This document shows positions 129-44,538 of a DNA stretch of 63,165 bases, one piece after another. Source of the stretch: an uncultured Candidatus Saccharibacteria bacterium. GTDB taxonomy: Bacteria; Patescibacteriota; Minisyncoccia; Phycocordibacterales; PALSA-1337. Under the pieces are notes generated by a model. The model was not told where the DNA came from, did no database searches, and saw only the letters and a list, made by a program, of their open reading frames with translations. Location: contig CAZQUI010000004.1 of the NCBI GenBank assembly GCA_964596595.1, forward strand, positions 1-63,165, given 5' to 3'. Position numbers and translations under genes: made by a program. Numbering within the stretch: position 1 is the first letter of the stretch; each line of letters opens with the position of its first letter.

Positions 129-186
129 TCCACATTCTGCGATTCTTTCGCCTTTTTCGGACGATTTTGCATTTTGCGCGAAATTG

Positions 187-273
187 CGGAGAGAGTGGGA
201 TTCGAACCCACGGTTCCCGTGAGGGAACGGCGGTTTAGTAAACCGCTGCCTTAAACCACTCAGCCATCTCTCC
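187..273 (-). tRNA. tRNA-Ser, anticodon ACT (unusual A34)
   Basis: Reverse complement folds as GGAGAGA/TCTCTCC acceptor with G73, D loop AGTGGTTTAA, anticodon stem GCGGT/ACCGC with loop TT-ACT-AA (anticodon 237-239), long variable arm GTTCCC/GGGAAC and T arm GTGGG-TTCGAAT-CCCAC; CCA not encoded. Confidence 0.92.
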
Positions 274-4678: not shown

Positions 4679-4716
4679 ACATTCAGCTAGGCTTACCCCT
4701 AGTTATAGCTAACAAG

Positions 4717-4790
4717 TCCGCCCTCTTGGATTCGAACCAAGGACCCCAGAGGTATAAGCTCTGTGCTCTAACCAACTGAGCTAAGGGCGG
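4717..4790 (-). tRNA. tRNA-Ile, anticodon TAT (UAU)
   Basis: Reverse complement: CCGCCCT/AGGGCGG acceptor with A73, D arm GCTCAGTTGGTTAGAGC, anticodon stem CAGAG/CTCTG with loop CT-TAT-AC (4754-4756), T arm CTTGG-TTCGAAT-CCAAG. Confidence 0.93.
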
Positions 4791-8585: not shown

Positions 8586-8630
8586 CAGCCAACAAAAAAG
8601 GCCAACGGAGCTGGCACTTTTTGTTGGCTG
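8586..8630 (-). terminator. hairpin immediately 3' of tmRNA (probable terminator)
   Basis: cagccaacaaaaa ... tttttgttggctg perfect inverted repeat. Confidence 0.7.
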
Positions 8631-8995
8631 TGGAGATGGCGGGAATCGAACCCGCGTGTAATCGAAACTCACTAAACGATTCTACAGTGGTAGTAGAAAT
8701 TGAAGTTTAATGAATGTGCTCAAAACGTCTACAAAACACACATTCACGATCTCTAAGTTTCGAAATAAATAGTGAGAAGTTATTTATTTCTACATCCGGG
8801 TTATGACATCCGCATCAAGGTATGGATCCCCTTGAACGAACGCGCACTACTTAAGCGAGTGCGAATGCAAAGTCCTTTGCTCCAAAATATGGAGAAACGG
8901 TTGATTTAGCATTTGTGGTTTCCGTCAGATTTACGAGATAACAGTGCTCGCACTGCACGAATAGGAGTCGACGATTATCGAAGCCGATCATCCCC
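8631..8995 (-). ncRNA. ssrA: tmRNA; tag peptide AKSTVSPYFGAKDFAFALA* (8851-8910)
   Basis: 5' GGGGATG pairs with 3' CATCTCC-A including G3:U70; T arm GCGGG-TTCGATT-CCCGC; internal tag ORF ending ALA*; adjacent to smpB. Confidence 0.96.
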
Positions 8996-33586: not shown

Positions 33587-34375
33587 ATGACACTTCCTTA
33601 TACCATTCTTATATTTGTAGGCATTATTATATTAGTTTTTGTATTAAAAAGACTTGGTTTAGCCATCTGGAACAAAATCAAAGAAAACGAGAACTTAAAA
33701 TACGAGTTTATCACAATCATTGCTCACAAATTCCGTACCCCCTTAACACAGATGAAATGGATTTCTGAAACAATGGTATCCGAAGAAAAAGACTCATATA
33801 AAAAAGAAAATCTTGAAAACATACACCACTCCACTCAACAACTCATAGATCTTACGGGTACACTTATAGAACTCACCGATTCAGACAATGCTTCAACAAA
33901 TTCATACAATTTCGAACATATAAACATATGTGAAATGGTAAAAAGTGTTGCTGACACATTTAAAAATAGTTTCCACGAGAAAAATATCTTTTTAGGTTTA
34001 CAGTGTGCTGCTCCGCAAATTTTTAGCAACATTGATAAACCTAGAATGGAATTTGTCCTTCAAACTATTCTACAAAATTCTATTACCTACTCACCCCCGG
34101 GAAGAAATGTAGAAGTTTTAATCTCCACAGAAAAAAATAGAGCCAAAATAACCGTAAAGGATCATGGTATCGGTATTGACCCAAAAGATATATCAAAAAT
34201 ATTTACAAAATTTTTCAGAACCTCAAACGCCCAAAGAACAGACACAGAAGGTTTTGGTATTGGACTATATTTGGCCCAAGCGATCGTTCGTCGTCATAAA
34301 GGAAAAATACTAGTTTTTTCTGAAGGTTTAGATATGGGAACAACGTTTGAAATTGTTCTACCGGTAACTAAATAA
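33587..34375 (+). CDS. single-TM sensor histidine kinase (HisKA, HATPase)
   Basis: HKFRTPL, NSITYS, VKDHGIGI, GFGIGL; TATAAT 8 nt before the ATG. Confidence 0.92.
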   Translation: MTLPYTILIFVGIIILVFVLKRLGLAIWNKIKENENLKYEFITIIAHKFRTPLTQMKWISETMVSEEKDSYKKENLENIHHSTQQLIDLTGTLIELTDSDNASTNSYNFEHINICEMVKSVADTFKNSFHEKNIFLGLQCAAPQIFSNIDKPRMEFVLQTILQNSITYSPPGRNVEVLISTEKNRAKITVKDHGIGIDPKDISKIFTKFFRTSNAQRTDTEGFGIGLYLAQAIVRRHKGKILVFSEGLDMGTTFEIVLPVTK

Positions 34376-36999: not shown

Positions 37000-37404
37000 T
37001 TACATCATTTTTACATCAATATTGACTCCTGACGGCAAACTAAGATTTGTCAGAGCTTCAATAACTTTTGGATTTGGATTTATAATATCAATGAGACGTT
37101 TGTGTACACGCATCTCAAATTGTTCACGAGAATTCTTGTCTATGAATGATGCGCGGTTGACCGTGTATTTCTTGATTTCGGTCGGCAAAGGCACCGGACC
37201 ATGTACTTCGGCATCATATCGAGCGGCTGTGTCCATGATCTGACGGAGCGAGGCATCAAGAATTTTGTGCTCGTATGCTCTGACACGGATGCGGAGGTGT
37301 GGTGCATCGCTTGAAACCGTGGCTTTGCGAGCACGAGCAGGTTTGTCACTGGCCGTTTTCGCAGTCTTAGCGGATTCATGAGATTTAGTTGTTTTTGAAA
37401 CCAT
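37000..37404 (-). CDS. rpsJ: 30S ribosomal protein S10 with basic N-terminal extension
   Basis: RIRVRAYEH..LD, GPVPLPT, SREQFE.RVHKRLIDI, GVNIDV. Confidence 0.98.
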   Translation of the reverse strand: MVSKTTKSHESAKTAKTASDKPARARKATVSSDAPHLRIRVRAYEHKILDASLRQIMDTAARYDAEVHGPVPLPTEIKKYTVNRASFIDKNSREQFEMRVHKRLIDIINPNPKVIEALTNLSLPSGVNIDVKMM

Positions 37405-37681: not shown

Positions 37682-38866
37682 TTAAGCGACTATTTTAGTG
37701 ATAACTCCTGCACCAACTGTCTTACCTCCTTCACGAACTGCAAAACGCTGTTGTGCATCAAGAGCAACTGGAGATACGAGTTTAACTTTGAAAGTAACAG
37801 TATCACCTGGCATAACCATTTCTTGAGTAAGAGTTACTTCACCAGTAACGTCTGTAGTACGAATATAGAACTGAGGCTTATAACCAGTAAAGAATGGAGT
37901 ATGACGACCACCTTCTTCTTTCTTAAGAACGTATACCTCTGCTTCAAACTCAGTATGAGGTTTTGAACTACCTGGTTTAGCGAGAACTTGACCACGAGAA
38001 ACACCATCTTTAGCCACACCACGAAGAAGAAGACCAGCATTATCTCCAGCAATAGCTTGCTTGAGTTGTTTATTGAACATTTCGATACCAGTTACAACGG
38101 TCTTGGAAGTATCTTTGAATCCAACGATTTCAACTTCATCGTTTAAGTTCAAAATACCGCGCTCTACACGACCAGTAACCACTGTTCCGCGTCCTTCGAT
38201 GGAGAAAATATCTTCGATAGGCATAAGGAAAGGTTTATCAGTTTCACGAACTGGCTCTGGGATAAAGGTATCCAAAGCATTCATAAGTTCATCGATCTTA
38301 GCTGTCCAAACAGGATCTCCTTCGAGAGCCTTAAGACCTGAACCACGAATAACTGGAGCTGCTTTACCATCGAAACCGTTTTTAGTGAGGAGTTCACGCA
38401 CTTCTTCCTCAACAAGATCCAAAAGATCAGCTTCTGCTACAGCGTCACATTTGTTAAGAAACACAAGAACACGAGGAACACCAACTTGCTTTGCAAGAAG
38501 GATATGTTCGCGTGTTTGCGGCATAACACCATCAAGAGCAGATACTACTAGAATAGCACCGTCCATTTGAGCGGCACCGGTAATCATGTTCTTGATATAG
38601 TCAGCGTGACCTGGGGCGTCTATGTGAGCATAATGACGTTTATCTGACTCGTATTCTACGTGAGCCAAAGAAATAGTAACTATTTTTGATGCATCACGAA
38701 CAGTTCCTCCTTTTGCGATATCTGCATAAGCTTTTGCATTTGCGAGACCTTTTTTTGATTGAACCGCCAAGATAGAGGCTGTCAAAGTAGTTTTGCCGTG
38801 GTCAACGTGACCAATTGTTCCAACGTTTACGTGTGGCTTTGTACGATTGAATTCTGCTGTTGCCAT
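37682..38866 (-). CDS. tuf: elongation factor Tu with atypical switch I
   Basis: [39 protein letters not shown]; switch I reads [16 protein letters not shown]. Confidence 0.99.
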
Positions 38867-39090: not shown

Positions 39091-41322
39091 TTACCCCGAT
39101 TGAGCAGAAATAAATAGAACAGGTGCTGGTTTAAGAGGAACGATAAATACAGGTACTTCAAGAGTTGTCAGGTTGCCTGCTTGGTCCCTAGAATATACTT
39201 TGATGTAATATGACATTCCACGAGTAAGATCAGGAATGATAACTGAATGGTTAGATGTATATGTAGTAGAAATCGTTGGTATCATCATACCTGGTAACGA
39301 AGTACCATATTCAACTTGAGTTGTTGCATCTTCATTTGTAACCCAAGATATCTCAATACTTTTATTAAAGAGTTTCTTTAGTCTTAAATTAGAGATCACT
39401 GGCGCTATGGTATCTGGAGTGTTATGAGGTGACATATTATCCTCACCAACTTTTAATACAACAAAAACATTAAACTCTATTGGTGTATGATCTTTATTTA
39501 AATGATTAACATTACCAATAATTGGTGATACTACTTGCAAGTTCAAAGGCAAAACAACATTTGGATCAAACGATCTGTAAGTACCATTTACCACTGGTGT
39601 GCCGAAATAATTTTGCGCATCTCTAATCTCAAATTTGTCTCCATCTACAAGTCCTGATGTACTCAAATCTAATGTTACACTATTATTTTTTTGCCAATTC
39701 CATACAACTATATTTGCTCTCCCTTTTTCGTATTTATTTGGACGTATAATAATCTTATTTTCAGGAATATCTGTTAAACTTAGAGTACTGTTTTTCTCCC
39801 ATGTTGGCAAATCACTTAAATACTTCCAACCAGGAGCACTATATGGCGATATTTCCCAACCGGCTTTAGTCAAAACCCTAGGATCATTTTCATCAAACTG
39901 ATCTGCTCCATAGTATTTATTATAATTCCAATCGGCATTTGAATAACTAAAACCTGTTGGCATAATAAAACTAAGAACTACTCTATTTGCTCCAAAATTA
40001 TAAAAGGTGTTATTTTTTACTGTAACTTTTTGGTATTCTTTTATCCCAAACACTCCCCCATCTACACCACTAGGCATAGCTTCTGCCACATAATTACCAA
40101 TAGCAACTGCTTCTCCGTTATTTTTTGCTACATAACCAAAACCAATACCATTCCGATAAGCATTGTTATAATTAATGGTATTTAAATTGGCTGGCTGTAC
40201 AGCAGTTGTAATAGCGATACCTCTATCAGGATTATCAAAGACTATGTTACCTTCAAATGTAACACCGTTACAAAAACCACTTTCACCGTGACATTTCATT
40301 CCACCAGTAAAATTTTTAAATGATATAACGTCACTAATTAGAATATTGCCCACTTCGTTTTGACTATAAATACCTCCTCCTCTGGTCCATCCGTTTGGTT
40401 GAGAAGGATTTGAATTATCATAAATACCATTCCCCCACAAAAGATTGCCGTATATTTCACCTTGGTCAGATTGCTTCCAAAAACCAATTGCAGGATGTCC
40501 AACATTATAAATAATATTATTTATTGACTTATTACCAACTCCTACCGCTTGTAAATTTAATCCGCAACCTTTGTTAAACTGATCAGTAAAACGTTCTTCA
40601 CGTACACTAGTAATTTCTAATCCCCAAAACCAGGTATAACTTCCACTATGATCTATAATGCAACCACCTTTGATAATAGCTGTACCCACTGGAATATTTA
40701 CAAAATCTGCGGGCGCAGAGGCAACTTCAACATTATATTTGTTAGCATCTGCAGGATTTTTACTGTAAACACTAGAAGGATTCAAAAGATACAAACCAAT
40801 ACCATTTATTCGCGCCGTATAACCAAGTGGCCATTTTTCACCATTAGTAATACGCATCTCGTATCTAGTCGTCCAACCACTTATAGGTGTAATAGGTTCT
40901 GCTAAAGTAGCTTGAAAATTATCATTTATAACAACCTTTTCATTATTATAATTTCTAACGACAATTGGAGCAGAAGCTGTGCCTTTAATCTTACTTGTAA
41001 ACGGACCAGTATATGTTCCACTTCTCAACCATATCGTATCTCCTGGTTTTACTACATAATTTTTATTTGTTGAAACAGTATTATCTTCCAACGCCGTTAT
41101 TAAATCCCAAGGATTATTAATGCTACCATCTCCAGACGATGAACCTGTTGGGGAAACATACCAAGAAGAACCACCTGTACCAACTAAAGCCAATTGAGTA
41201 TTAAATACTAAACTTATTTTATTATATTGATTTAAAAAATAAACCGTAGAAATTGTAGCCATAAGGGCCACGAGTCCAACAAAAAAAGTAGCTACGTACG
41301 AAAATTTATAATTATAAGACAT
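39091..41322 (-). CDS. membrane-anchored right-handed beta-helix protein with C-terminal fibronectin type III domain
   Basis: N-terminal TM; WYVSPTG..GDGS..NPW start; N/G-rich beta-helix rungs; RPNKYEKGRANIVVWNW; Fn3 motif WVTNEDATTQVEYG...YYIKVYSRDQAGN. Confidence 0.85.
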   Translation of the reverse strand: MSYNYKFSYVATFFVGLVALMATISTVYFLNQYNKISLVFNTQLALVGTGGSSWYVSPTGSSSGDGSINNPWDLITALEDNTVSTNKNYVVKPGDTIWLRSGTYTGPFTSKIKGTASAPIVVRNYNNEKVVINDNFQATLAEPITPISGWTTRYEMRITNGEKWPLGYTARINGIGLYLLNPSSVYSKNPADANKYNVEVASAPADFVNIPVGTAIIKGGCIIDHSGSYTWFWGLEITSVREERFTDQFNKGCGLNLQAVGVGNKSINNIIYNVGHPAIGFWKQSDQGEIYGNLLWGNGIYDNSNPSQPNGWTRGGGIYSQNEVGNILISDVISFKNFTGGMKCHGESGFCNGVTFEGNIVFDNPDRGIAITTAVQPANLNTINYNNAYRNGIGFGYVAKNNGEAVAIGNYVAEAMPSGVDGGVFGIKEYQKVTVKNNTFYNFGANRVVLSFIMPTGFSYSNADWNYNKYYGADQFDENDPRVLTKAGWEISPYSAPGWKYLSDLPTWEKNSTLSLTDIPENKIIIRPNKYEKGRANIVVWNWQKNNSVTLDLSTSGLVDGDKFEIRDAQNYFGTPVVNGTYRSFDPNVVLPLNLQVVSPIIGNVNHLNKDHTPIEFNVFVVLKVGEDNMSPHNTPDTIAPVISNLRLKKLFNKSIEISWVTNEDATTQVEYGTSLPGMMIPTISTTYTSNHSVIIPDLTRGMSYYIKVYSRDQAGNLTTLEVPVFIVPLKPAPVLFISAQSG

Positions 41323-41885: not shown

Positions 41886-44030
41886 TTACTTTCTCTTCTC
41901 AGCAATCTCCTTTTCTACATTAGATGGTACAACTTCATAATGATCGAACTCCATCATGGCACTACCTTGACCTGAAGTCATAGAACGAAGCGCAGTGGTA
42001 TAACCAAACATTTCTGAAAGTGGAACCTTTGCATGAATTGCGATATTTTGACCACGAGGTTCAGAACCTTCAACTTGACCACGTTTTGAAGCAATAGAAC
42101 CATTGACATCACCCATGTATTTTTCAGGAGCAATAACTTCTAATTTCATAATTGGCTCTAGAATTACTGGCTTGGAACGTTTAGCAGCTTCCTGAAAAGC
42201 TTGTGAAGCAGCAATTTTGTAAGCAATTTCAGATGAATCGACGTCATGGTAAGAACCGTGGATAAGTTCACAGGAAACATTTACCATACGAAAACCAGCA
42301 ACAATACCTCGATCCATGGCTTCATGAACACCTTTTTCAACTGCAGGAATAAATTCGTTAGGAATCACACCACCCTTGATTGAGTTGATAAATTCAAAAT
42401 CATCGTACCGTTTAATATTTTTTGGAATCTTCTCACCTTCTGGCCAAGCTTCCATTGGTTTCAAAATTATTTTTACGTGACCATATTGACCTTTACCTCC
42501 TGTCTGTTTGATATATTTATGTTCTGCTTCGGCGGTACCCATAATAGTTTCACGATAGGCAACCTGTGGCTCTCCTACATTTGCTTCAACTCCAAATTCA
42601 CGTTTCATACGATCGATCATAATTTCTAAATGAAGTTCACCCATGCCAGAAATGATAGTTTCTCCTGTTTCTGGATTTGAAGAAATTCTAAATGTTGGAT
42701 CTTCGTTACCAAGTTTCTTAAGAGCCATACCCATCTTTTCTTGGTCAGCTTTTGTCTTTGGTTCAATACGTAGAGAAACCACTGGTTCCATGAACTTGAT
42801 AGTTTCGAGAACAATAGGATTGTTTTCATCACAAAATGTATGAGAAGTTAAAGCATCTTTTAGACCAACGGCGGCGGCGATTTCCCCAGCAAAAACTTTT
42901 TTAACTTCTTCACGCTTATCTGCTTGCAGACGAACTATGCGACCCAATCTTTCTTTTTTACCCGTTGTTGAGTTGTAAAGATATGATCCAGACTCTACTG
43001 AACCAGAATATACACGGAAGAATGTAAGGGCTCCTACAAACGGATCGTTTTGAAGTTTGAAAGCAAGAGCTGAAAAAGGCTCTGTGTCTGAAGCGTGACG
43101 AATAACTTCTTCACCAGTATTTGGATTGATACCTTTTACAGGAGGAATATCTAAAGGCGATGGAAGATAATCGACAACAGCATCTAGAACCAACTGAACT
43201 CCAACATTTTTGAGAGCAGAACCAGTAAATACCGGGAAAATTTTATTTGCAATCACGGCTTTACGTGTAAGACCCTTGAGTTCTTCCATTGTAAACTCCT
43301 TACCTTCAAGGAAATGAGACATTGTGGCATCATCAGTTTCTACAATCTTTTCGATCATTTCAGCACGATACTTCTTTGCTTCTACCATCATTTCTTCTGG
43401 GATCTCTTTTTCAATTATATTAATGCCTTTTTCACCTTCAAAATAAAAAGCTTTCATGCGCATAAGATCGACAACTCCAACATGGTCACCTTCGAGACCA
43501 ATAGGTAATTGAAAACGAATAGCATTTTTATTGAGACGGTCTAAAATAGAAGCAAAAGAACGCTCAAAAGAAGCACCTGTTCTGTCCATTTTATTGATAA
43601 AACAAAGGCGTGGTACGTTACCCTCGTCAGCATAACGCCAATTTGTTTCAGATTGAGGCTCCACACCAGCAACTCCATCGAAAACTACAACTGCACCATC
43701 TAGAACGCGAAGTGAACGTTTTACTTCTACAGTAAAGTCGATATGTCCTGGAGTGTCAATGATATTGAAGCGGACCTTTTTGGAAACATCCTCTTTTGGC
43801 ATATAGGTTGGATTCCAAAAACAGGTGATAGCAGCTGCAGTAATAGTAATACCACGTTCTCGCTCTTGTTCCATCCAATCAGTAGTAGTTTCACCTTCAT
43901 GGACTTCGCCGATCTTGTGGATCATGCCTGTATAGTAAAGAATACGTTCTGAAGTTGTGGTTTTACCCGCATCAATATGAGCAATGATGCCGAAGTTACG
44001 CATGCGTTCAAGTGGATAGTCGCGATTCAT
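41886..44030 (-). CDS. fusA: elongation factor G
   Basis: RNFGIIAHIDAGKTT, EQERGITI, DTPGH, NKMD; true start MNRDY at 44030, the track start overlaps rpsG. Confidence 0.99.
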   Translation of the reverse strand: MNRDYPLERMRNFGIIAHIDAGKTTTSERILYYTGMIHKIGEVHEGETTTDWMEQERERGITITAAAITCFWNPTYMPKEDVSKKVRFNIIDTPGHIDFTVEVKRSLRVLDGAVVVFDGVAGVEPQSETNWRYADEGNVPRLCFINKMDRTGASFERSFASILDRLNKNAIRFQLPIGLEGDHVGVVDLMRMKAFYFEGEKGINIIEKEIPEEMMVEAKKYRAEMIEKIVETDDATMSHFLEGKEFTMEELKGLTRKAVIANKIFPVFTGSALKNVGVQLVLDAVVDYLPSPLDIPPVKGINPNTGEEVIRHASDTEPFSALAFKLQNDPFVGALTFFRVYSGSVESGSYLYNSTTGKKERLGRIVRLQADKREEVKKVFAGEIAAAVGLKDALTSHTFCDENNPIVLETIKFMEPVVSLRIEPKTKADQEKMGMALKKLGNEDPTFRISSNPETGETIISGMGELHLEIMIDRMKREFGVEANVGEPQVAYRETIMGTAEAEHKYIKQTGGKGQYGHVKIILKPMEAWPEGEKIPKNIKRYDDFEFINSIKGGVIPNEFIPAVEKGVHEAMDRGIVAGFRMVNVSCELIHGSYHDVDSSEIAYKIAASQAFQEAAKRSKPVILEPIMKLEVIAPEKYMGDVNGSIASKRGQVEGSEPRGQNIAIHAKVPLSEMFGYTTALRSMTSGQGSAMMEFDHYEVVPSNVEKEIAEKRK

Positions 44031-44067
44031 ATTAATCTTTAAAATTATATTACGATAAATTATTATA

Positions 44068-44538
44068 CTACCATGCAAAGTGAGCAAAAGCTTTATTAGC
44101 TTCAGCCATTTTGTGAACATTTTCACGCTTTTTAACTGCTTCACCTTCATTTTTAGAAGCGGCAATTATTTCATCAGCCAATTTTTCGGCTATAGGTTTA
44201 CCTTTTTTACCTCGAGCAGCTTCAACTATCCATTTCATGGACAAAGCCTGTTTACGCTCTGGTCGAACTTCACGTGGAACCTGATAGTTGGCACCACCCA
44301 CACGACGAGAACGGACTTCCATGAGAGGAGAAGTATTTTTTAAAGCCAATTCAAATAATTCCATAGGATTCTCAGTTTTTGCTTTTTCTTTTATAAGATC
44401 CATACAATCATGCACGATTGAACGAGCAATGTTCTTTTTTCCTGATTCCATTACGTAATTGATCAATTTTGAAATTTTTAGAGAATCATAAACTGAATCT
44501 ATTTCTAATTCTCTTTTTATATTTAATTTGCGTCGCAT
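44068..44538 (-). CDS. rpsG: 30S ribosomal protein S7
   Basis: [34 protein letters not shown]. Confidence 0.99.

What the first reader, a model, noticed from the sequence alone, without database searches (positions are those of the whole stretch)
38651..38730. EF-Tu carries a PVC-like switch I instead of the canonical effector loop
Seen: [19 protein letters not shown] replaces the near-universal (F/Y)DxIDxAPEExxRGITI and is 2 residues longer. From memory, [13 protein letters not shown] typifies Planctomycetes and some Verrucomicrobia, whereas the adjacent HIDAPGH is the form I recall for Parcubacteria. Inference: horizontal replacement or mosaic recombination of a core translation gene, possibly from a host lineage. 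Switch I also contacts EF-Tu-targeting antibiotics.
Basis: partly seen in the sequence, partly recalled or inferred. Interest (0 to 1): 0.65.

Follow-up and report, generated by a model that had tools for sequence, protein, structure and literature searches.

The report
EF-Tu gene with swapped switch loop
The bacterium's single elongation factor Tu gene is an ordinary Parcubacteria gene, except for an internal patch of about 35-55 codons that encodes the GTPase "switch I" loop in a form otherwise typical of Planctomycetes and Verrucomicrobia; the patch looks like an ancient recombination inherited by a whole sub-group, not a recent event.

Summary
This is 2 residues longer than the canonical (F/Y)DQIDxAPEExxRGITI and is followed by HIDAPGH.

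The loop is not peculiar to this genome. All 110 closest homologues with an intact N-terminus (86-100% identical, Parcubacteria MAGs including Taylorbacteria) carry the same loop.

The loop is not ancestral to Parcubacteria either. Kaiser-, Zambryski- and Portnoybacteria, and Curtissbacteria (Microgenomates), have the canonical loop on the same HxDAPGH backbone. Where flanks could be read, tuf sits in the same fusA-tuf-rpsJ locus.

The variant loop is the norm in sampled Planctomycetota, Verrucomicrobiota, Omnitrophota, Polyangia, Bdellovibrionota and Elusimicrobia, and in one Saccharibacteria genome.

- **Identity:** for aa 30-66 the window protein is 29% identical to canonical-loop Parcubacteria and 70% to Verrucomicrobia. 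For the rest it is 78% versus 66%.
- **NJ bootstrap:** the tract groups with variant carriers (96%). The rest groups with Parcubacteria and Saccharibacteria (99%).
- **N-terminus:** it is CPR-type, so the patch is internal.

Best reading: an ancient segmental replacement (gene conversion or HGT) that was then inherited vertically. A recent or host-derived transfer is not. No solved structure has this loop, and I found no paper describing it.

The parts
37682..38866 (-). tuf, elongation factor Tu, 394 aa. It is the only tuf copy in the 63-kb window.
   Evidence: ORF. NCBIfam TIGR00485 649.7 bits against a cut-off of 522.4. PDB EF-Tu hits down to E=4.9e-178. tblastn of the protein on the window finds only this gene and the fusA G domain.
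38672..38728 (-). Variant switch I (effector loop), Y47[18 protein letters not shown]65. It is 2 aa longer than the canonical loop. T64 is the conserved G2 threonine.
   Evidence: Direct reading. The gap opposite canonical chains is shown. The same string is present in 110/110 nearest homologues.
38669..38779 (-). Mosaic tract, about aa 30-66, of the PVC-like variant type. The minimal tract defined by signature columns is aa 34-63 (38678..38767). The maximal tract is bounded by the CPR-type N-terminus (aa 4-6) and the CPR signature L67.
   Evidence: Sliding-window identity, signature columns, conflicting NJ bootstraps, N-terminal A[ED]F signature.
38606..38626 (-). HIDAPGH (aa 81-87), the G3/switch II start with catalytic His87. 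Ala replaces the usual Cys81; this is a CPR backbone marker.
38789..38812 (-). P-loop GHVDHGKT (aa 19-26). It is canonical and includes the Asp that is used for monovalent-cation binding in trGTPases.
   Evidence: Direct reading. The role of the Asp is as stated in PMC4342817.
41886..44165 (-). fusA (EF-G). The listed ORF starts at an upstream TTG and overlaps rpsG, so the real start is probably the internal Met before [14 protein letters not shown].
   Evidence: Translation. Homologous fusA lies upstream of tuf in related contigs.
39091..41322 (-). 743-aa predicted secreted or membrane protein inserted between fusA and tuf. Its domain matches (beta-helix, fn3, purple acid phosphatase N) are weak and below Pfam cut-offs. 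It is not part of the EF-Tu feature, but it marks a variable insertion site directly upstream of the mosaic 5' part of tuf.
   Evidence: Relatives carry different genes at this position.
37000..37404 (-). rpsJ (S10), immediately downstream of tuf, followed by rplC, rplD, rplW and rplB. This shows that tuf sits at the orthologous str/S10 locus.
   Evidence: Pfam PF00338 E=8.9e-32. Synteny with both loop types.

Best explanation
This is the organism's ordinary, functional EF-Tu at the orthologous str/S10 locus, but the gene is an old chimera.

**Origin.** The backbone is the Parcubacteria/CPR type: the N-terminus, everything from aa 67 onward, Ala in [25 protein letters not shown] and GGKTVGAG. 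An internal patch of roughly 35-55 codons (aa ~30-66) encodes switch I in the alternative '[10 protein letters not shown]-x-(S/T)K-x-VTI' form. That form is standard in Planctomycetota, Verrucomicrobiota, Omnitrophota, Polyangia, Bdellovibrionota and Elusimicrobia.

Most likely (inferred), the ancestor of a Parcubacteria sub-clade replaced this segment by homologous recombination with a variant-type tuf from a cellular or phage-borne donor. That sub-clade includes Taylorbacteria and the window's organism. The crossovers would lie in the near-invariant P-loop and the TI...HVEY/RHYAH flanks. The chimera was then inherited vertically. Saccharibacteria probably acquired the same loop separately.

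**Function (inferred from residue conservation, not tested).** The loop should still act as the nucleotide-dependent switch.
- Residues kept: the Mg2+/gamma-phosphate threonine (T64 = E. coli T61), a beta-branched hydrophobic residue at the 'gate' position (V63 for I60), a basic residue at R58 (K61), I49 (I50) and the aromatic F46 (Y47).
- Residues lost: D50, P53, E54/E55, the methylated K56, and G59 of RGITI.
- Likely consequences: GDP/Mg2+ stabilisation, monovalent-cation coordination and regulation by modification may differ in detail. Sensitivity to agents that recognise RG|ITI may differ too.
For: **The loop in this genome and its relatives.**
- The loop and its length are shown.
- The same loop is in 110/110 nearest homologues.
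- The variant loop is found across six non-CPR phyla and one Saccharibacteria genome.
- The canonical loop sits on the HxDAPGH CPR backbone in 120/120 profile hits named Kaiser-, Zambryski- and Parcubacteria. It is also in Portnoybacteria and Curtissbacteria.
- Both loop types occupy the same fusA-(insert)-tuf-rpsJ-rplC-rplD locus.

**Mosaic signal.**
- Identity for aa 30-66 is 0.29 to canonical Parcubacteria and 0.70 to Verrucomicrobia. For the rest it is 0.78 and 0.66.
- The best matches over the tract are PVC sequences (0.77-0.81). The best matches over the rest are Kaiserbacteria-like (0.78-0.81).
- There are 10 variant signatures, all within aa 34-63, and 12 CPR signatures, all outside that stretch.
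- NJ bootstrap for the tract gives a variant versus canonical split of 96% and a CPR clade of 0%. For the rest it gives {variant Parcubacteria, canonical Parcubacteria, Saccharibacteria} at 99% and a variant clade of 0%.
- The N-terminal A[ED]F motif is shared only among CPR sequences.

**Polarity.** The canonical tract diverges stepwise within CPR: Curtissbacteria have F46...THVEY, Portnoybacteria V46...AHVEY, and Kaiser-/Zambryskibacteria V46...SH(N/S)EY. This suggests it evolved in place, so canonical is the ancestral state.

**Age.** Neighbouring genes of variant-loop contigs are closer to the window (fusA 84-85%) than those of canonical-loop contigs (58-73%). The tract has no GC anomaly.

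**Residue roles.** F46, I49 and D50 contact GDP; K56 is methylated and pairs with pT61; R59 contacts pT382 (PMC5851678). The P-loop Asp and switch-I Gly bind M+ (PMC4342817).
Against: - The trees are neighbour-joining on Kimura-corrected distances with strict bipartition counts. No ML, site-heterogeneous or AU test could be run.
- The tract has only 43 columns and lies in a functional loop. Selection could therefore mimic shared ancestry.
- CPR sampling is thin: one Saccharibacteria genome, one Microgenomates lineage, and no Gracilibacteria, ABY1 or others. Polarity rests on parsimony.
The genome scan excluded Ala at position 81. The metagenome scan required HIDAPGH.
- In the masked NJ tree the whole CPR clade sits next to the non-CPR variant carriers. 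This leaves room for a deeper whole-gene relationship.
- The donor is unresolved.
- The AlphaFold model is uninformative for the loop (pLDDT below 50 at residues 54-64).
- No biochemical data exist.
Confidence: 0.6

Rival explanations
1. Ancestral paralogy. An early CPR ancestor carried two tuf copies, one with each loop. Gene conversion between them homogenised everything except the switch-I tract, and different lineages then kept one copy or the other.
For: Gene conversion between tufA and tufB is well documented (stated in PMC4342817). This model would also give a common backbone with two discrete loop types at one locus.
Against: No second tuf is seen in the window or in any of the roughly 17-kb related loci. 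CPR genomes are small. Two copies would have to persist through the Microgenomates/Parcubacteria/Saccharibacteria splits. The variant tract would still need an origin, because the canonical RGITI form is shared with other trGTPases.
Confidence: 0.12
2. Reverse polarity. The variant loop is ancestral in CPR, perhaps shared by descent with PVC-type EF-Tu. Kaiser-, Zambryski-, Portnoy- and Curtissbacteria regained a canonical loop by recombination.
For: In the masked NJ tree the CPR clade as a whole lies next to the non-CPR variant carriers. Saccharibacteria, which lie outside Parcubacteria, have the variant. A related longer variant occurs in a Chloroflexota MAG.
Against: The canonical tracts in CPR have lineage-specific flanks that change stepwise (V46, SH(N/S)EY). 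This looks like long evolution in place rather than import. This model also needs several independent reversions, or one very early reversion followed by re-acquisition in the window's sub-clade. Support for the deep placement is low.
Confidence: 0.12
3. Convergence. The loop evolved in place from a canonical CPR loop to the same alternative optimum, because switch I has only two viable sequence solutions.
For: The variant core ([10 protein letters not shown]) is almost invariant across phyla, which shows very strong constraint. The signature columns lie in a functional loop.
Against: It would require the same 2-residue insertion and identity at 19 of 19 residues with Opitutales and Akkermansia sequences. 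It would also require similarity in the less constrained flank (ILxVQxxKGLA). No intermediates appeared among 240 Parcubacteria sequences.
Confidence: 0.1
4. Recent horizontal replacement of the whole tuf gene in this genome by a PVC or host gene.
For: Only the loop motif itself supports it.
Against: The protein is 86-100% identical to over 100 Parcubacteria homologues but only 60-71% identical to PVC and Myxococcota proteins. The backbone is CPR-type. The locus is conserved. There is no compositional anomaly.
Confidence: 0.02
5. Assembly or binning chimera.
For: None.
Against: The same mosaic protein is encoded on many independent contigs of up to 761 kb from NCBI, JGI, ENA and Logan. It lies inside a contiguous ribosomal-protein operon.
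Confidence: 0.01

Closest known systems
Canonical bacterial EF-Tu (E. coli TufA/TufB, Thermus EF-Tu; e.g. PDB 1EFC, 1EXM, 1TTT)
   Same: It has the same three-domain architecture, P-loop, DxxGH with the catalytic His, NKxD, the G2 threonine and the str-operon position. Overall identity is 60-71%.
   Different: Switch I is 2 residues longer and differs at 13 or more consecutive positions. D50, P53, E54, E55, K56 and G59 are absent; R58 becomes K and I60 becomes V. Cys81 becomes Ala. None of the 58 distinct PDB EF-Tu sequences that matched this 64-residue stretch has this loop.
EF-Tu of Planctomycetota, Verrucomicrobiota, Omnitrophota, Polyangia, Bdellovibrionota and Elusimicrobia (e.g. Akkermansia MAG L074, Sorangium cellulosum So ce26 L067)
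   Same: The switch I class is the same. The 19-residue string [19 protein letters not shown] is identical in Opitutales and Akkermansia sequences, and identity over aa 30-72 is 77-81%.
   Different: Outside the tract identity is only 63-70%. These proteins have H(I/V)DCPGH and lack the CPR backbone signatures. They do not group with the window protein once the tract is removed (0% bootstrap).
Canonical-loop Parcubacteria EF-Tu (Kaiserbacteria P0413/P0471, Zambryskibacteria P0481, Portnoybacteria P0520)
   Same: These are the closest backbone: 78-81% identical outside the tract, with the same [23 protein letters not shown] and GGKTVGAG features. Portnoybacteria-type and unnamed canonical-loop contigs also share the locus.
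   Different: They have a canonical EExxRGITI switch I with idiosyncratic flanks. Identity over aa 30-72 is only 29-41%.
Known tuf recombination and transfer: tufA/tufB gene conversion, and a horizontally acquired second tuf in enterococci and Streptomyces Tuf3/actEF-Tu2
   Same: They show that tuf genes do recombine and can move between lineages. Gene conversion and actEF-Tu2 are described in PMC4342817. The enterococcal case is from my own knowledge and was not checked here.
   Different: Those cases involve whole genes or near-identical paralogues within a genome. Here a short internal segment of the single orthologous copy differs in origin across phylum-level distances.

Membership tests
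Elongation factor Tu (TIGR00485 / PRK00049) | Whole-protein score above the curated cut-off | tested here: met
   TIGR00485 649.7 bits against 522.4. PRK00049 657.1 bits against 449.
Elongation factor Tu (TIGR00485 / PRK00049) | Three domains: GTP_EFTU, GTP_EFTU_D2 and GTP_EFTU_D3 | tested here: met
   PF00009, PF03144 and PF03143 are precomputed for P0001, the window protein. The AlphaFold model has pTM 0.80 and the expected fold elements.
Elongation factor Tu (TIGR00485 / PRK00049) | G motifs: G1 GHVDHGKT, G2 Thr, G3 DxPGH with the catalytic His, G4 NKxD, G5 S(A/G)L | tested here: met
   Read directly: G19-T26, T64, D83-H87, N138-D141 and S176-L178. G2 keeps the Thr but not the RGITI consensus.
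Elongation factor Tu (TIGR00485 / PRK00049) | Canonical effector loop (F/Y)DxIDxAPEExxRGITI | tested here: not met
   It is replaced by [19 protein letters not shown]. This consensus is not part of the curated family definition, so EF-Tu membership stands.
Elongation factor Tu (TIGR00485 / PRK00049) | Position in the str/S10 operon (rpsL-rpsG-fusA-tuf-rpsJ) | tested here: met
   One 743-aa gene is inserted between fusA and tuf.
Variant (PVC-type) switch-I class of EF-Tu | A loop 2 aa longer with DIAKGG-x-x-RD-x-x-K-x-(V/L)TI | tested here: met
   All 10 shared signature columns lie within aa 34-63.
Variant (PVC-type) switch-I class of EF-Tu | The rest of the protein groups with the other carriers (whole-gene relationship) | tested here: not met
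   0% bootstrap for a variant clade outside the tract. Identity there is 0.66-0.70, against 0.78 to canonical-loop Parcubacteria.
CPR / Parcubacteria EF-Tu backbone | HxDAPGH plus the shared signatures at aa 67, 126, 154, 220, 277, 335, 343, 356, 359, 360 and 364, and an A[ED]F N-terminus | tested here: met
   The {variant Parcubacteria, canonical Parcubacteria, Saccharibacteria} clade has 99% bootstrap outside the tract.
Specialised second EF-Tu (Streptomyces Tuf3 / actEF-Tu2-like, antibiotic-resistant paralogue) | A divergent extra copy alongside a standard tuf | tested here: inconclusive
   There is no second tuf in the 63-kb window, and the gene sits at the primary locus. The rest of the genome is not available.

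The most novel reading that the evidence does not exclude
Bacterial EF-Tu exists in two discrete, non-intergrading switch-I 'alleles'. The alternative one lacks the RGITI glycine, D50 and K56. It has spread between phyla as a short recombining cassette from PVC-like lineages into at least two CPR lineages, possibly carried by large phages that encode their own variant-type EF-Tu. On this reading the catalytic switch of a core translation GTPase is itself a horizontally exchangeable module. The advantage might be escape from agents that recognise or cleave the canonical loop, or a changed dependence on cations or regulation.
Probability: 0.3. Interest if true: 0.75.

Novelty: new variant of a known kind. 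Interest (0 to 1): 0.55.

Why it matters
EF-Tu is used as a vertically inherited marker, and its switch I is treated as near-universal in mechanistic work: the hydrophobic gate, Mg2+ and monovalent-cation coordination, K56 methylation, T61 phosphorylation, and toxin or protease targets.

Whole phyla and a large Parcubacteria sub-clade use a different, 2-residue-longer loop. No structure or biochemistry exists for it. This defines a concrete experiment: do these factors hydrolyse GTP, exchange nucleotide and bind aa-tRNA in the same way?

The mosaic pattern also shows that a short internal piece of a core translation gene can have a different history from the rest. This matters for marker-gene phylogenies of CPR and PVC bacteria. 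It is also relevant to how episymbiotic CPR bacteria exchange DNA with other lineages.

For this particular genome the feature is ordinary for its clade.

Tried and rejected
- **Representative search.** At 50% clustering almost all bacterial EF-Tu collapse, and the top 150 hits were fusions, fragments and divergent unnamed sequences. They were useful only for revealing longer loop variants (P0123, P0158). They added long-branch noise to the first trees, so I dropped them.
- **First trees.** These lacked canonical-loop Parcubacteria. They suggested only 'no whole-gene affinity to PVC', and at that stage I read the loop as simply clade-typical. The metagenome scan overturned that reading.
- **AlphaFold2 model.** Switch I and switch II have pLDDT below 50, so nothing can be said about the loop's conformation. 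I did not run a fold search.
- **Literature searches.** No held paper describes this loop. Jenkins & Fuerst 2001 is not held. PMC13351119 and the Omnitrophota preprint mention EF-Tu but not this feature.
- **Composition.** GC and GC3 of the tract against the rest of the gene gave no signal.
- **Donor assignment.** Verrucomicrobiota and Planctomycetota sequences tie at 0.81, so no donor can be named.
- **Failed call.** One protein search was given wrong coordinates and returned an error.
Full report
**1. The observation**

The window contains one tuf gene, 37682..38866 on the minus strand, encoding 394 aa. It scores far above the curated EF-Tu cut-offs: TIGR00485 gives 649.7 bits against 522.4. 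It aligns end to end with solved EF-Tu structures.

Residues 47-65, encoded at 38672..38728, read [19 protein letters not shown]. In every alignment to a PDB chain the canonical sequence YDQIDKAP--EEKxRGITI needs a 2-residue gap. HIDAPGH follows at aa 81-87. A tblastn of the protein against the window finds no second tuf. The gene lies in the usual order rpsL-rpsG-fusA-[743-aa ORF]-tuf-rpsJ-rplC-rplD-rplW-rplB.

**2. Is it peculiar to this genome?**

No. The 120 best homologues among 5.8 billion proteins are 86-100% identical. Where they are named, they are Parcubacteria/Patescibacteria MAGs, including Candidatus Taylorbacteria. All 110 with an intact N-terminal region carry [10 protein letters not shown](A/D)(S/T)K(I/V)VTI and HIDAPGH.

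Contigs encoding three of these homologues show tuf next to rpsJ-rplC-rplD. fusA lies upstream in two of them. Their fusA, rpsJ, rplC and rplD are 60-88% identical to the window's.

**3. Where else is the loop found?**

I scanned one genome per GTDB species for GG-x-x-RD-x-x-K-x-x-TI followed 15 codons later by HxD(not A/G/V/D/E)PGH. All 120 loci contain a tuf homologue.

The loci come from these groups:
- Planctomycetota: Pirellulales, Gemmatales, Isosphaeraceae and Phycisphaerae.
- Verrucomicrobiota: Opitutales, Puniceicoccales, Limisphaerales and Akkermansia.
- Omnitrophota.
- Myxococcota: Polyangia, including the complete Sorangium cellulosum So ce26 genome.
- Bdellovibrionota.
- Elusimicrobia.
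- One Saccharibacteria MAG.
- A few MAGs with other labels.

Opitutales and Akkermansia sequences have exactly [19 protein letters not shown].

Two caveats apply. The pattern excluded Ala at position 81, and the scan was truncated. The hits therefore show presence, not frequency.

A longer relative of the loop (AKADAKMFRRDATKILTV) occurs in a cluster that includes a Chloroflexota MAG.

**4. No whole-gene affinity to PVC**

The window protein is 60-71% identical to the non-CPR variant carriers and 73% identical to the Saccharibacteria protein. It is 58-71% identical to canonical EF-Tu from Bacillota, Pseudomonadota, Desulfobacterota, Actinomycetota, Bacteroidota, Fusobacteriota, Mycoplasmatota and Cyanobacteriota. 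Columns that separate variant from canonical proteins are confined to the loop, plus three scattered positions.

**5. The turning point: Parcubacteria with a canonical loop**

I scanned metagenome contigs for E-x-x-RGITI followed by HIDAPGH. Many hits came from groundwater small-size fractions. Most of the proteins are 66-73% identical to the window EF-Tu and share its unusual backbone residues.

A profile built from six of them retrieved 120 proteins. All have a canonical loop and H(I/V)DAPGH. They are named Candidatus Kaiserbacteria, Zambryskibacteria, Parcubacteria group and Patescibacteria. Exact look-ups assign two further types to Portnoybacteria (Parcubacteria) and Curtissbacteria (Microgenomates). 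In these contigs tuf sits in the same fusA-tuf-rpsJ-rplC-rplD locus.

So HxDAPGH is a CPR-wide backbone marker, and the variant loop marks only a sub-clade of Parcubacteria.

**6. The mosaic**

Four kinds of evidence show the mosaic.

*Signature columns.*
- Twelve columns carry a residue shared only by variant-loop and canonical-loop Parcubacteria: aa 67, 84, 126, 154, 220, 277, 335, 343, 356, 359, 360 and 364.
- Ten columns carry a residue shared only by variant-loop Parcubacteria and non-CPR variant carriers: aa 34, 51, 53-58, 61 and 63.
- The two sets do not interleave.

*Sliding-window identity.*

| Region | vs canonical-loop Parcubacteria | vs Verrucomicrobia |
|---|---|---|
| aa 30-66 | 0.29 | 0.70 |
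| Rest of protein | 0.78 | 0.66 |

- The best individual matches over aa 30-72 are PVC sequences (0.77-0.81).
- The best matches over the rest are Kaiserbacteria-like sequences (0.78-0.81).

*NJ bootstraps, 200 replicates.*

| Grouping | aa 30-72 | Remaining 351 columns |
|---|---|---|
| Variant carriers (+ Chloroflexota form) vs canonical | 96% | 0% |
| CPR clade {variant Parcubacteria, canonical Parcubacteria, Saccharibacteria, Microgenomates} | 0% | 66% |
| {variant Parcubacteria, canonical Parcubacteria, Saccharibacteria} | 0% | 99% |
| {variant + canonical Parcubacteria} | 0% | 80% |

*N-terminus.* The motif A[ED]F at aa 4-6 occurs in these counts:
- 105/120 variant-loop Parcubacteria
- 41/120 canonical-loop Parcubacteria
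- 0/80 non-CPR variant carriers
- 0/107 non-CPR canonical proteins

The foreign-looking tract is therefore an internal patch. It is at least aa 34-63 and at most about aa 13-66. It is flanked by the invariant P-loop on one side and the TI...HVEY/RHYAH block on the other. These flanks are natural sites for homologous crossovers.

**7. Polarity and age**

The canonical tract changes stepwise within CPR:
- Curtissbacteria: F46...ITHVEY
- Portnoybacteria: V46...LAHVEY
- Kaiser- and Zambryskibacteria: V46...SH(N/S)EY

This looks like evolution in place. Together with the canonical RGITI consensus of other translational GTPases (established knowledge), it favours canonical as the CPR ancestral state and the variant tract as the import.

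The event is old. The variant-loop Parcubacteria form a 100% clade. Their neighbouring genes are also the window's nearest relatives. The tract has no compositional anomaly: GC3 is 0.21 against 0.26 for the rest. Saccharibacteria fall outside {Parcubacteria} in the backbone tree, so a second acquisition is likely.

The alternatives cannot be excluded with NJ trees and this sampling. They are reverse polarity, ancestral paralogy with concerted evolution, and convergence, and they are scored as rivals in the report.

**8. How it probably works (inference)**

Mapping onto E. coli numbering through the alignments gives the picture below.

Retained:
- Y47 for F46
- I50 for I49
- K61 for R58
- V63 for I60, the hydrophobic-gate partner of V20 (established knowledge)
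- T64 for T61, the Mg2+/gamma-phosphate ligand

Lost:
- D50, which with F46 and I49 contacts GDP in the open form (PMC5851678)
- P53, E54 and E55
- K56, the methylation site and partner of phospho-T61 (same paper)
- G59, the switch-I glycine implicated with the P-loop Asp in monovalent-cation binding (PMC4342817)

The P-loop Asp is kept. I therefore expect a working nucleotide switch. Its helix or hairpin segment is 2 residues longer and it uses different secondary contacts. It would not be recognised by anything specific for RG|ITI. For example, E. coli Lit protease cleaves EF-Tu at G59-I60 (my own knowledge, not checked here).

None of the 58 distinct PDB EF-Tu sequences that matched this stretch has this loop. 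The AlphaFold2 model is confident overall (pLDDT 85, pTM 0.80) but not in residues 54-64 or 88-99.

**9. Known or new?**

The protein is an EF-Tu. The loop is present in public sequences of cultured organisms such as Sorangium. Five full-text searches found no paper that describes the loop, its distribution or the CPR mosaic. The one older paper that might mention it is not held.

I rate it a new variant of a known kind. For this genome the feature is clade-typical. The wider pattern is moderately interesting: two discrete switch-I forms and a cassette-like discordance in a core gene.

**10. Limits**

- Trees are distance-based only.
- The tract is short and functionally constrained.
- The scans were pattern-biased and truncated.
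- Taxon labels are the submitters' own.
- Only part of CPR diversity was sampled.
- There are no functional data.

Noticed in passing
L257-L274 (IMG/VR contigs, 6-533 kb): Eighteen contigs classed as viral carry a stand-alone variant-type tuf that is not next to rpsJ or an intact fusA. In the loci inspected it lies beside SbcC/SbcD-like nuclease genes, a MazG-like pyrophosphatase and a GIY-YIG/HNH homing endonuclease. The proteins are only 57-73% identical to their best matches, almost all Planctomycetota EF-Tu. These may be large phages encoding their own EF-Tu, which would be a conceivable vehicle for moving the loop.
   Followed up: partly
window 39091-41322 (-); also L253 4330-7762, L255 3131-7844, L164, L195: The space between fusA and tuf holds a different insert in each relative. 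In the window it is a 743-aa protein with weak beta-helix/fn3 matches; elsewhere there are TIG/PG-binding proteins or unknown ORFs. In Taylorbacteria L251 tuf is not preceded by fusA at all. This is a variable insertion site directly upstream of the mosaic 5' part of tuf.
   Followed up: partly
window 33587-34375 (+): A histidine kinase gene (HisKA + HATPase_c) lies on the opposite strand inside the S10 operon, between rplB and rpsS. Relatives L251/L253 have an aminotransferase and an Orn/DAP decarboxylase after rplB instead; in L253 these lie between rplB and rpsS. The ribosomal-protein operon is repeatedly interrupted in this clade.
   Followed up: partly
window 186-273 (-): There is a tRNA-Ser with anticodon ACU; the anticodon loop reads TTACTAA. 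A34 is unusual in bacterial tRNAs other than tRNA-Arg(ACG). A normal tRNA-Ser(GCU) lies at 1196-1285.
   Followed up: partly
window 4716-4790 (-): There is a tRNA-Ile with anticodon UAU, rather than the usual CAU-lysidine route for AUA codons.
   Followed up: no
window 37000-37404 (-): Ribosomal protein S10 has an N-terminal extension of about 37 residues rich in Lys, Ala, Thr and Ser. The Pfam S10 match starts at residue 38.
   Followed up: no
P0123 / P0525 (Chloroflexota MAG), P0158: A third, longer switch-I form exists (YDDVAKADAKMFRRDATKILTV / AKASVSQGRRDATKILTI). It shares the AK...RD-x-TK-x-LT(I/V) frame with the variant loop and groups with it in the tract tree.
   Followed up: partly
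L010, L048 (Myxococcota MAGs) versus L037, L043, L103 (Phycisphaerae/Tepidisphaerales MAGs): The sub-variant IAKGGIDRDATKTVTIAAAHVEYE is shared between MAGs labelled Myxococcota and Phycisphaerae. Another sub-variant, GGTERD, is shared by Gemmataceae, Phycisphaerales and Puniceicoccales MAGs. This means either further inter-phylum exchange or binning errors.
   Followed up: no
window 41886-44165 (-): The mechanical fusA ORF starts at a TTG about 45 codons upstream of the conserved N-terminus and overlaps rpsG (44068-44538). The true start is probably the Met in [25 protein letters not shown].
   Followed up: no
window 8628-8995 (-): A tmRNA gene (Rfam 112.8 bits) has the tag peptide AKSTVSPYFGAKDFAFALA.
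   Followed up: no
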